Part shown: piece after piece, positions 60,794 through 61,414 of the stretch | Numbering within the stretch: position 1 is the first letter of the stretch | Layout of the letters: each line of letters opens with the position of its first letter | NCBI RefSeq assembly: GCF_041248615.1 | Contig: NZ_CP158426.1 | Direction: 5' to 3' (one strand) | Origin: Escherichia coli | GTDB taxonomy: Bacteria; Pseudomonadota; Gammaproteobacteria; Enterobacterales; Enterobacteriaceae | DNA: 64,000 nucleotides | Notes under the pieces: model-generated | What the model saw: the letters and a program-made list of their open reading frames with translations, nothing else | The model's database searches: none | Told to the model about the DNA's origin: nothing | Program-made: the position numbers and the translations under genes

Positions 60794-61414
60794 TTTTATT
60801 CCTACGGGTCTTATTCTGACAATATATCCTGTGTTCCAGACTGCCACATCACCACATCCTGTGCCATTATCTGACTCACATTACATACATCGCATCAGGA
60901 TACAGTAGTAGCACTTTCTGTAATACAGCTTCCGGTTTCTTCCACCATCGCACCGGACTGGCGAGCATGAGGGACAAACCCGCGAACCATAAACGCGGTA
61001 AAAACCCGGTGTGCATCGTTTTTGATTATTCCCGCACACTCGCGCAGAAGGAGTTCCCCGTCGGGCTACGGTCTCTGTTAATACGGGAATACGGCGACGA
61101 TACAGCGCATGATATGTCAGGCTTGAATACCTTTATCCGTTAAAAGGGATATCAGTTAAGTTATCCCGTGTAGGGTATAAGCCATTGTCGAGACCACTCA
61201 TTGAATGGTCTCTGCAATAACCGATGTCTTTCCATCAGTCCGCCACCACAAAGAATCTTTTTTGCCATAAGGCAGGAGGTTCATCTTTCAGTGGCTGCCA
61301 GTGTTATTTCCCCACTTACTGGCTTGGGTTGTTTCGCTGTACTGCCGTAACTGGTTTCCCAGAATAAATTCTGGTTTCATTATCAAGCCCACCCGTAGAT
61401 AGGCTTTGTAATGG

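What the first reader, a model, noticed from the sequence alone, without database searches (positions are those of the whole stretch)
60850..61410. About 560-bp stretch without a convincing ORF inside the lambdoid late region
Between the lipoprotein gene and the 95-aa ORF there is a long gap with only short, poorly supported reading frames. In compact phage genomes such gaps often hold decayed genes, small RNAs or regulatory elements.
Basis: seen in the sequence. Interest (0 to 1): 0.3.

Follow-up and report, generated by a model that had tools for sequence, protein, structure and literature searches.

The report
Conserved structured non-coding spacer, lambdoid late operon
The gene-free stretch is real and is a patchwork of non-coding prophage sequence, including a roughly 180-base folded RNA element shared by hundreds of lambda-like phages that no database describes and whose function is untested.

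Summary
The gap is larger than reported: 60794-61414, 621 bp, because the lipoprotein gene starts at 60793. Its longest ORF (58 aa) is no longer than chance gives, and RefSeq annotates nothing there in four identical genomes.

No hidden gene was found. Homologues show no codon periodicity, one-base indels are common, and no protein family matches.

The late genes lie on the minus strand. Read in that direction, the gap has four parts:
1. 61414-61128: the roughly 290-nt hairpin-rich leader that normally precedes the orf80/DUF2560 gene of P22-like phages. It is orphaned here. Folding z = -6.6.
2. 61137-61117: the last six codons and stop of a Rha gene.
3. 61109-60931: element "B", a sharply bounded unit of about 180 nt. 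It occurs in 433 phage records, including lambda, 933W-like Stx phages and K-12 DLP12. Pairing is kept by compensatory changes in 13 of 33 pairs and by G·U pairs on the late strand only. It diverges 0.068, against 0.234 at third codon positions of the adjacent Rz gene.
4. 60930-60794: the upstream region of a TonB_C lipoprotein moron.

Rfam has no match. The known sRNA HnrS sits beside B in EHEC prophages but is absent here.

Most likely these are cis-acting RNA structures in the late transcript. That function is inferred, not shown.

The parts
60794..61414 (-). The whole non-coding spacer of the late operon, between the 95-aa ORF (61415-61702) and the TonB_C lipoprotein gene (60467-60793).
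   Evidence: There is no annotation in identical RefSeq genomes, and the ORF content is at chance level.
61128..61414 (-). Block D/C. In most relatives this is the roughly 290-nt hairpin-rich 5' leader of the orf80/DUF2560 gene. Here it is orphaned, with no DUF2560 gene downstream.
   Evidence: It is conserved at 90% or more per column in 111 distinct copies. At least 70 of the copies run straight into the SD and ATG of orf80. The late-sense fold is -102.7 kcal/mol with z = -6.62, against z = -3.74 for the other strand.
61377..61413 (-). Hairpin motif, type 1 (CAUUA-CA-AAGCCUAUC-UACG-GGUGGGCUU-GA-UAAUG). It starts 3 nt after the stop codon of the upstream ORF.
   Evidence: Pairs covary among copies.
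61183..61222 (-). Hairpin motif, type 2. It has the same architecture as type 1 but a different inner stem (GAGACCAUUC / GAGUGGUCUC).
   Evidence: Variants follow the series A-U, G·U, G-C. The segment between the two hairpins is absent in phage 1717.
61161..61268 (-). A 35-aa pseudo-ORF. It equals the N-terminal extension annotated on some 118-aa 'DUF2560' proteins. It is probably leader sequence, not coding.
   Evidence: tblastn gives 97% identity over 35 aa to the annotated L007 protein, but P22 orf80 (80 aa) begins only after this segment. There is no Pfam hit and no codon periodicity.
61117..61137 (-). Remnant of the 3' end of a Rha-family gene: six codons (DKGIQA) and the stop. It is joined to the leader at the microhomology GGATAAA.
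60931..61109 (-). Element B, a discrete conserved structured module of about 180 nt read on the late strand.
   Evidence: The boundaries are sharp. It is present in 433 phage records. Of 33 modelled pairs, 13 show compensatory changes. Pairing is 98.4% on the late strand against 88.1% on the other. Its divergence is 0.068, against 0.234 at third positions of the adjacent Rz. The covariance model finds a single copy in the window.
61013..61103 (-). B domain I, a long interrupted hairpin. P1 is 61103-61097 with 61019-61013. P2 is 61091-61085 plus 61083-61080 with 61040-61037 plus 61033-61027. P3 is 61065-61063 with 61058-61056. It contains the near-invariant run GAGUGUGCGGGRAUAAUCAAAAACGAURCACACCGGG.
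   Evidence: Salmonella phage S107 carries three compensatory pairs in P2, and the K-12 DLP12 copy restores a pair. This domain occurs alone in lambda and in DLP12.
60980..60998 (-). B central hairpin (CCGCG / CGCGG). The stem sequence differs between lineages.
   Evidence: All five pairs show double changes. The alternative stems are CUGUG/CGCAG, UUCUCAU/AUGGGAG and CACGUU/AACGUG.
60930..60958 (-). B 3' hairpin, with the conserved loop GCGAUGGUGGAAGAA. Variable cargo begins immediately after it.
   Evidence: Five of seven pairs show double changes. The module occurs alone in K-12 Qin and in phage Tritos. There are 27 distinct downstream 12-mers among 124 copies.
60794..60930 (-). Block A, the upstream region of the lipoprotein moron. 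It is AT-rich (41% GC). A possible extended -10 (TGTCAGAAT) lies at 60821-60813 and an RBS (AGGA) at 60803-60800.
   Evidence: This block travels with the lipoprotein gene in other genomes. The motif ATTGTYAGAATAAGAC is shared with phage Lys8385Vzw. The promoter assignment is inference; the consensus scan did not call it.

Best explanation
The gap is genuinely non-coding DNA inside the Q-dependent late operon of an E. coli lambdoid prophage. The late strand is the window's minus strand. The gap is a recombinational patchwork of four pieces. The first is the structured 5' leader that normally precedes the orf80/DUF2560 gene; that gene has been lost here. The second is the last 21 nt of a Rha gene. 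The third is element B, a widespread RNA module of about 180 nt. The fourth is the promoter and 5' UTR region of a TonB_C lipoprotein moron. The sequence evidence shows that B, and the hairpins of the leader, are kept as base-paired structures on the late-sense strand. It also shows that B evolves more slowly than the neighbouring Rz gene and that it marks the point where variable cargo begins. I infer that these elements act in cis within the long late transcript. At the junction between the lysis and moron section and the packaging genes, the hairpins (notably the roughly 19-bp interrupted P1-P2 helix of B) would serve as RNA processing or stability determinants, for example RNase III or RNase E entry points or exonuclease barriers, or as insulators. 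They are not a gene and not a free-standing sRNA.
For: No gene is present. The ORFs are at chance level. PGAP leaves the region empty. Pfam, NCBIfam and PHROGs give nothing significant. Variable sites are spread evenly over codon positions, 36/35/40 in B and 78/83/83 in D/C, and B carries 113 one-base indels across its copies. The mini-ORF start is not conserved.

The region is a mosaic. Different sub-blocks match different phages, with sharp edges.

The structure is supported. In B, 98.4% of cells are paired, 13 of 33 pairs carry compensatory changes, and 0 of 500 shuffles reach the observed values. Explicit compensatory sets are seen in Salmonella phage S107 and in K-12 DLP12.

The strand is indicated. 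There are 261 G·U cells against 10 A·C cells, and pairing is 98.4% on the late strand against 88.1% on the other. The D/C leader folds with z = -6.62 on the late-sense strand against -3.74 on the other.

The element is constrained. Mean divergence of B is 0.068, against 0.234 at third positions and 0.109 at first and second positions of the adjacent Rz, over 390 pairs.

It is widespread. B is in 433 phage records, and part of the gap is in 4195 of 5426 complete E. coli genomes.
Against: No expression or cleavage data were available, so the RNA-level role is inferred. The window copy of B is not unusually stable: z = -0.28. Much of the pairing evidence consists of one-sided G·U changes among closely related sequences. 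The copies were collected with an exact 25-mer, which inflates apparent conservation. The alignment used for the best covariation count was fitted to the model. Partial copies exist, with domain I alone in lambda and DLP12 and the 3' hairpin alone in Qin, so the whole unit is not always needed. The D/C leader is orphaned here and may simply be a relic. Mosaic recombination can keep sequences similar without any function.
Confidence: 0.55

Rival explanations
1. The gap is functionless debris. Under this reading it consists of scars of illegitimate and homologous recombination between lambdoid phages, namely gene tails, an orphaned leader and 'linker' sequence, and it looks conserved only because these phages exchange DNA often and recently.
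For: The mosaic edges are sharp and there is a microhomology junction. A Rha tail and a pseudo-ORF are present. The neighbouring 95-aa ORF is itself only the C-terminal 40% of a 233-aa family. Partial B copies exist in lambda, DLP12 and Qin. B has no excess folding energy.
Against: Compensatory base changes and strongly strand-biased G·U substitutions are not expected in debris. B is three times less diverged than third codon positions of the adjacent Rz. A 38-nt run is nearly invariant even in copies found by BLAST alone that are only 77-78% identical overall. The leader has a folding z-score of -6.6.
Confidence: 0.25
2. The gap hides one or more small protein genes. Candidates are the plus-strand 58-aa ORF (60967-61143) and 47-aa ORF (61224-61367), which were annotated as hypothetical proteins in phage Chlobot, and the late-strand 82-aa 'Rz-like spanin' ORF annotated over B in 933W-like phages.
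For: Some depositors annotate such ORFs. tblastn shows 87-91% amino-acid identity between the Chlobot ORFs and the window. Fragments match PHROG 6954.
Against: The amino-acid identity simply mirrors the nucleotide identity. No frame shows codon-position bias, one-base indels are frequent, and the stop-free run falls to 19-27 aa in some copies in every frame of B. N-termini and start codons differ between copies. The 82-aa frame is broken by a stop and split over two frames in the window. There is no significant Pfam or NCBIfam match, and PGAP calls nothing.
Confidence: 0.05
3. The gap encodes an independent Hfq-type sRNA on the strand opposite to the late genes, like HnrS, which lies beside B in EHEC prophages.
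For: HnrS (EcOnc10/11/12) is a 66-nt Hfq-bound sRNA. In Sakai Sp9, Sp10 and Sp12 it maps immediately next to the 3' boundary of B on the anti-late strand (Tree 2014 Table S2; bioRxiv 10.1101/2025.11.27.690950; mapping). A sigma-70-like site faces this way at 60639-60666.
Against: The window has no HnrS sequence, no mazF-complementary 15-mer and no HnrS terminator; that slot holds the lipoprotein gene. The plus strand has only two weak terminator-like sites. Pairing is clearly poorer on the plus strand. Rfam gives no match.
Confidence: 0.05
4. The hairpins work at the DNA level. They could be palindromic binding sites for a phage or host protein, or folded single-strand sites at which cargo cassettes are exchanged.
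For: Two diverged copies of one hairpin motif flank a roughly 160-bp segment that is precisely absent in phage 1717. B sits exactly where unrelated cargo begins, with 27 distinct downstream 12-mers. The genes upstream are usually DNA-binding antirepressor-like genes such as Rha, KilA-N and Ant.
Against: Double-stranded protein sites would not tolerate G·T in place of pairs on one strand only. No recombinase is linked to the element. B occurs with four different terminase and packaging types, so it is not a packaging site. A single-stranded DNA reading cannot be separated from an RNA reading by sequence alone.
Confidence: 0.08

Closest known systems
HnrS sRNA (EcOnc10/11/12) of EHEC prophages Sp9, Sp10 and Sp12 (Tree et al. 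2014, PMC4104026; Poudyal et al. 2025, bioRxiv 10.1101/2025.11.27.690950)
   Same: It occupies the same genomic neighbourhood, the non-coding stretch between the lysis genes and the terminase genes of lambdoid prophages. Its terminator abuts the 3' boundary of element B.
   Different: HnrS is a 66-nt Hfq-dependent sRNA with an intrinsic terminator, on the strand opposite to the late genes. Its sequence is absent from the window. B is a different sequence, and its pairing signal is on the late strand.
Intercistronic RNase III processing hairpins of phage polycistronic mRNAs, such as the T7 R sites and the lambda N-leader and sib sites (established knowledge, not tested here)
   Same: These are interrupted helices of about two turns lying between genes of a long phage transcript. 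The P1-internal loop-P2 helix of B and the 14-15-bp hairpins with a 2x2 internal loop in the leader have this general shape.
   Different: There is no sequence similarity, and no cleavage has been shown. This is a 'works like' suggestion only.
Moron boundaries and mosaic junction sequences of lambdoid phages (Juhala et al. 2000, as cited in PMC4104026; Casjens and co-workers, PMC8022706)
   Same: B has sharp edges and unrelated genes on either side. It lies in the part of the late operon known to accept extra genes.
   Different: Classic junctions are not reported to carry covarying RNA structure or to be more conserved than the flanking genes.
The 5' region of the orf80/DUF2560 gene (P22 orf25-orf80 region; ST64T orf118; epsilon34 annotation 'similar to the N-terminus of ST64T orf118')
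   Same: Window 61414-61128 is the same sequence at 93-99% identity.
   Different: The DUF2560 coding part is missing here. The leader is fused to a Rha tail and to B instead.

Membership tests
Any Rfam 15 RNA family | A covariance-model match, at E of 1 or less with permissive filters | tested here: not met
   One search gave 0 matches in window 59400-62500, both strands.
HnrS sRNA | The 66-nt sequence, including the seed and the 15 nt complementary to the end of mazF (CTACCCAATCAGTAC) | tested here: not met
   One search found no significant BLAST match of the Sakai hnrS region anywhere in the window, and the 15-mer is absent.
HnrS sRNA | An intrinsic terminator (CUGCUGUG...CACGGCAG followed by a U run) on the anti-late strand abutting B | tested here: not met
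   It is present in 12 of 124 B copies elsewhere, not here.
DUF2560 / P22 orf80 protein gene | An ORF of about 80 aa with the DUF2560 domain following the leader | tested here: not met
   One search gave no Pfam hit. Searches show that only the upstream leader and the 35-aa pseudo-extension are present.
Rha family regulator gene | An ORF of about 180-200 aa with the Rha domain | tested here: not met
   Searches show that only the last six codons (DKGIQA and stop) remain, at 61137-61117.
Conserved protein-coding gene of any kind | Reading frame kept across homologues, with excess variation at third codon positions | tested here: not met
   One search shows variable sites at 36/35/40 and 78/83/83 by codon position, 113 one-base indels in B, and stops in every frame in some copies.
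Conserved structured RNA motif (generic) | Base pairs maintained by compensatory and G·U changes, with strand asymmetry | tested here: met
   for B. Support for the leader hairpins is partial.
Intrinsic (Rho-independent) terminator on the late strand | A GC-rich hairpin followed by a U run | tested here: not met
   One search found none on the minus strand within 60794-61414. One lies upstream, at 61747-61728.
RNase III processing site | A helix of about 20 bp, often with an internal loop | tested here: inconclusive
   The P1 (7 bp), internal loop and P2 (11 bp) geometry fits, but shape alone is not diagnostic.
RNase III processing site | Cleavage by RNase III in vivo or in vitro | not testable with these tools
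   This needs Northern blots or primer extension in an rnc mutant, or in vitro cleavage.
RNA anti-CRISPR / type I-E repeat mimic | Near-full-length similarity to the host CRISPR repeat, including a short-loop hairpin | tested here: not met
   One search found only a 10-nt match (GCGGGGATAA) in 46 of 75 copies, reached by 1% of shuffles. It is mismatched in the window copy and changed in Salmonella S107. The 'loop' is about 45 nt. The repeat sequence was taken from memory.
Moron (for the lipoprotein unit next to the gap) | An extra gene with its own promoter inside the late operon | tested here: inconclusive
   The TonB_C lipoprotein gene is present in only some relatives. The candidate extended -10 is inferred and was not called by the scan.

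The most novel reading that the evidence does not exclude
Element B is not merely a cis hairpin. Under this reading it is released from the late transcript as a stable structured non-coding RNA that acts in trans during lytic growth. It could, for example, act as a decoy for a host RNA-binding protein or defence nuclease; its P2 stem faintly recalls the type I-E CRISPR repeat. That would make it a widespread, unrecognised phage RNA, with domain I present in lambda itself. A second exotic reading is also not excluded: that the folded hairpins serve as single-strand recombination sites for swapping cargo genes.
Probability: 0.1. Interest if true: 0.75.

Novelty: new member of a known kind. Interest (0 to 1): 0.45.

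Why it matters
If the structures are functional, lambda-like phages, including lambda, the Shiga-toxin phages and P22 relatives, carry an unannotated RNA element at the boundary between their lysis and packaging genes. Such an element could shape how the 20-kb-plus late message is cut, stabilised or insulated. It also marks the slot where virulence-related cargo such as the HnrS sRNA, Bor and TonB-like lipoproteins is inserted, so it is a useful landmark for finding prophage cargo. At the least, it explains a recurrent empty region and several doubtful 'hypothetical protein' or 'Rz-like spanin' annotations laid over it.

Tried and rejected
- **Rfam.** A permissive scan gave nothing.
- **Protein families.** Pfam, NCBIfam and PHROGs on every short ORF gave nothing meaningful.
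- **A Rha gene remnant across B.** I first suspected this because BLAST listed Rha genes under the match. The match is in fact downstream of rha, and only six codons overlap.
- **A 10-codon leader peptide (MRxIVAVFPH) at the 5' edge of B.** The start codon is missing in the lambda-type, Lys8385Vzw-type and 933W-type copies.
- **EcOnc11 inside B.** I first placed this Hfq peak inside B. That was an artefact of a shift of about 128 nt between Sakai genome versions. The sRNA (HnrS) lies just outside B and is absent from the window.
- **AsxR/AgvB anti-sRNAs and Pas sRNAs.** These lie upstream of the lysis genes or in the structural operon, not here.
- **A cos or pac site.** B occurs next to lambda-type, 933W-type, HK97/HNH-type and other packaging modules, so it is not tied to one terminase.
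- **CsrA-type GGA enrichment.** About 10 GGA in 484 nt against about 8 expected, by hand count; not pursued.
- **An IHF site.** The ATCAA core lacks the TTR part of the consensus, by inspection.
- **A CRISPR-repeat mimic.** The 10-nt match is weak.
- **Literature.** Searches for the core sequence, for DUF2560, for borD/ybcV sRNA and for late-operon RNase III found no description.
- **Thermodynamic support for B.** None; z is about 0.

Full report
**Setting.** The window is an E. coli lambdoid prophage whose late genes run on the minus strand. In transcription order they are holin (63611-63826), lysozyme (62385-62918), Rz with Rz1 (61921-62403), a 95-aa ORF (61415-61702), the gap, a lipoprotein with a TonB C-terminal domain (Pfam E = 3.8e-13), then the small and large terminase subunits (58947-59495 and 57047-59017). 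Four RefSeq E. coli chromosomes carry 60700-61550 at 100% identity, with the same gene order.

**The observation.** The gap is real and slightly larger than reported. PGAP starts the lipoprotein gene at the ATG at 60793, which is followed by a signal peptide and lipobox. The longest-ORF listing starts it at the GTG at 60847. The non-coding stretch is therefore 60794-61414, 621 bp. Its longest complete ORF is 58 aa. Shuffles of the same bases average 69 aa, and 68% of them do as well. PGAP annotates nothing in the gap. No short ORF has a significant match in Pfam or NCBIfam. PHROGs gives only weak fragments.

**Is there a hidden gene?** I collected homologues and asked whether any frame is conserved. 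There were 70 distinct copies of the right-hand module in transcription order and 107 of the left-hand module. Variable sites are spread evenly over the three codon positions in every frame: 36/35/40 and 78/83/83. The first module carries 113 one-base indels across its copies. In B, every frame has stop-free runs as short as 19-27 aa in some copies.

Some depositors have annotated ORFs here. Phage Chlobot has two plus-strand hypothetical proteins, a lambda-like phage has a 37-aa one, and 933W-like phages have an 82-aa late-strand 'Rz-like spanin'. Their similarity to the window only mirrors the DNA identity. Their N-termini differ, and the 82-aa frame is interrupted and split between two frames in the window. 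A 10-codon mini-ORF at the edge of the module lacks a start codon in several lineages.

**Anatomy: a mosaic.** BLAST against 5,426 complete E. coli genomes finds some part of the gap in 4,195 of them. Only 52 carry 80% or more of it in one piece. Different segments match different phages, with sharp edges. Reading in the late-transcript direction, the pieces are as follows.

- **61414-61128, block D/C.** In 111 distinct copies gathered from viral contigs, this block is at least 90% conserved per column from just after the stop codon of whatever gene lies upstream. Those upstream genes include Rha, KilA-N proteins, a HK620 gp39-like gene and the 95-aa ORF. In at least 70 of the copies the block runs straight into GGAG-N7-ATG, the start of P22 orf80, an 80-aa DUF2560 protein. 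It is therefore the normal roughly 290-nt leader of that gene.
  - In some records the gene is annotated as 118 aa by extending it upstream. The window's 35-aa minus-strand ORF (61161-61268) is that extension, at 97% identity. P22's own gene starts after it, and the segment shows no coding signature.
  - The leader RNA is strikingly structured: -102.7 kcal/mol against -70.9 for shuffles, z = -6.62. The opposite strand gives z = -3.74.
  - It contains two diverged copies of one hairpin design, at 61413-61377 and 61222-61183. Each has an outer 4-5-bp stem, a 2x2 internal loop, an inner 9-10-bp stem and a small loop. The inner-stem sequences differ, and one pair runs through A-U, G·U and G-C among copies. 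The roughly 160 nt between the two hairpins are precisely absent in Stx2 phage 1717.
- **61137-61117, a Rha tail.** Homology to the leader stops at GGATAAA and switches to the last six codons and stop of a Rha gene, DKGIQA* (DKGISA* in phage Lys8385Vzw). This is a microhomology junction and a true, tiny gene remnant.
- **61109-60931, element B.** Conservation across 91 extended copies rises from about 0.4 to about 0.9 at 61109 and falls again at 60931.
  - B alone matches 433 phage records, 397 of them over at least 80% of its length. They are mostly Escherichia and Stx phages, with a few from Salmonella and Shigella, and B is almost always unannotated.
  - It follows Rz directly in Sakai Sp9 and Sp10. 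It follows rha in Lys8385Vzw. It lies between bor and the terminase gene in 933W-like phages, and upstream of bor in lambda-like phages.
  - Lambda itself and K-12 DLP12 (borD-ybcV intergenic, NC_000913.3 579009-579116) have only its first domain. K-12 Qin and phage Tritos have only its last hairpin.
  - Among 124 copies with both flanks there are 27 different downstream and 21 different upstream 12-mers.
- **60930-60794, block A.** This AT-rich block (41% GC) travels with the lipoprotein gene. It shares ATTGTYAGAATAAGAC with the equivalent region of Lys8385Vzw. I read TGTCAGAAT (60821-60813) as a possible extended -10 for this moron. That is inference; the consensus scan did not call it.

**Is B a structure, and on which strand?** RNAalifold and manual inspection give a long interrupted hairpin (P1, P2, P3), a central hairpin and a 3' hairpin.

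- On the MAFFT alignment of 70 copies, 98.3% of cells pair, against 36-51% when partners are slid. Only 4 pairs show double changes.
- More distant copies found by BLAST, without any exact-word requirement, add clear compensation. Salmonella phage S107 changes three consecutive P2 pairs on both sides and three pairs of the 3' hairpin. K-12 DLP12 repairs a G·G mismatch of the 933W type. The central hairpin exists with at least four unrelated stem sequences.
- On a covariance-model alignment of 75 copies, 13 of 33 pairs carry double changes. Shuffles give a mean of 2.7 and reach the observed value 0 times in 500. Slid controls give 2-7. That alignment is fitted to the model, which favours the structure.
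- The strand signal is strong. There are 261 G·U cells against 10 A·C cells, so pairing is 98.4% on the late-sense strand but 88.1% on the other.
- B is also constrained. In 390 pairs of loci where B follows an Rz gene of the same family, mean divergence is 0.068 in B, 0.234 at Rz third positions and 0.109 at Rz first and second positions. Two caveats apply: the 25-mer used to collect copies accounts for 14% of B, and mosaicism uncouples the histories of the two sequences.
- Against this, the window copy of B has no excess folding energy, z = -0.28.

**Known RNAs nearby.** Rfam 15 has no match at E of 1 or less.

- The anti-sRNAs AsxR and AgvB and the Pas sRNAs lie upstream of the lysis genes or in the structural operon, not here.
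- Table S2 of Tree et al. 2014 lists three identical, very abundant Hfq sites, EcOnc10, 11 and 12, in Sp12, Sp10 and Sp9. A 2025 preprint renames them HnrS. HnrS is a 66-nt Hfq-dependent sRNA with an intrinsic terminator that represses hha.
- I first placed the Hfq peak inside B. The old coordinates are shifted by about 128 nt relative to NC_002695.2. Using the 15 nt complementary to mazF described in the preprint, hnrS maps to 1946946-1947011. That is on the anti-late strand, with its terminator abutting the 3' boundary of B (B is at 1946755-1946940).
- Twelve of 124 B copies have this neighbour. The window does not; neither the sRNA nor its terminator is present, and the slot holds the lipoprotein gene. 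HnrS is therefore the closest known element by position, but it is not what is in this gap.
- I found no description of B or of the orf80 leader in the searchable literature.

**How it most likely works.** Four things are shown. The stretch is non-coding. It is built from conserved modules. Those modules keep base-paired structure specifically on the late-sense strand. B evolves more slowly than the adjacent gene and marks a cargo boundary.

The rest is inferred. The late operon is one long Q-antiterminated transcript (established knowledge for lambda and P22). The structures carry no U-run terminators on that strand. They therefore most plausibly act in cis on that transcript, as processing or stability determinants or as insulators at the junction between the lysis and moron genes and the packaging genes. 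The roughly 19-bp interrupted P1-P2 helix and the 14-15-bp hairpins with internal loops have the general shape of phage RNase III sites. That is a resemblance only. In this particular prophage the orf80 leader has lost its gene and may be a relic.

**Rivals.**
- Functionless recombination debris is plausible for parts of the gap. For B it is contradicted by the covariation, the strand bias and the constraint.
- Hidden small genes are contradicted.
- An anti-late sRNA is contradicted.
- DNA-level sites are not fully excluded. A folded single-strand DNA reading cannot be separated from an RNA reading by sequence alone.
- A faint likeness of P2 to the type I-E CRISPR repeat is not convincing. It is a 10-nt match, reached by 1% of shuffles, and it is not kept in the window copy or in S107.

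**Verdict.** The finding is a true non-coding gap. It is not a decayed large gene and not a known sRNA. It is a mosaic that includes a widespread, unannotated, structurally constrained RNA-like module of unknown function. That deserves moderate interest. The module looks like a new structured-RNA motif of lambdoid phages, but its role is unproven and its taxonomic range is narrow.

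Noticed in passing
window 61415-61702 (minus strand): The 95-aa ORF next to the gap matches only positions 139-230 of a 233-aa PHROG family of unknown function (phrog_3527, E = 3.7e-55). 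It looks like the C-terminal 40% of a longer gene, which suggests a truncated remnant with an internal start.
   Followed up: partly
window 61728-61747 (minus strand): A canonical intrinsic-terminator-like hairpin (AGCCTCGCATTCGCGGGGCT followed by TTTTTATT) sits on the late strand between Rz and the 95-aa ORF, inside the late operon. Q-modified polymerase would presumably read through it.
   Followed up: no
window 60467-60847 (minus strand): The lipoprotein gene most likely starts at the ATG at 60793 (PGAP; signal peptide and lipobox), not at the GTG at 60847 given by the longest-ORF listing. Its best PHROG (phrog_1267) is labelled 'Rz-like spanin', although the protein carries a TonB_C domain, so that label looks wrong.
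   Followed up: partly
L133 6447-6512 (NC_002695.2 1946946-1947011); also Sp9 in L135: The coordinates of the Hfq sites in Table S2 of Tree et al. 2014 are offset by about 128 nt from the current Sakai RefSeq record. With the correction, hnrS lies directly beside element B, and the two share a boundary.
   Followed up: yes
L011 3510-3617 (NC_000913.3 579009-579116) and L012 3467-3497 (about NC_000913.3 1637466-1637496): E. coli K-12 carries fragments of element B in cryptic prophages. Domain I lies between borD and ybcV in DLP12. The 3' hairpin alone lies between ydfO and gnsB in Qin. Neither is annotated.
   Followed up: partly
L008 2443-2691 and other 933W-like phages: An 82-aa ORF annotated 'Rz-like spanin' or 'hypothetical protein' (PHROG 6954) lies entirely over element B, just upstream of the terminase gene. 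Other B copies break this frame, so the annotation is probably spurious.
   Followed up: partly
window 60639-60666 (plus strand): A good sigma-70-like site (TTAACC, 16-nt spacer, TATAAT with an upstream TG; 10 of 12 matches) lies inside the lipoprotein gene, pointing antisense to it and towards the gap. The number of such sites in the region is no higher than in shuffles.
   Followed up: no
L006 (P22-pbi), about 1290-1360 on the late strand: In P22 itself the orf80 leader diverges after the second hairpin into a G10 run followed by a terminator-like hairpin (AAAAAAGCCGCTTACTTAGCGGCTT). This is a different ending from the one in most relatives.
   Followed up: no
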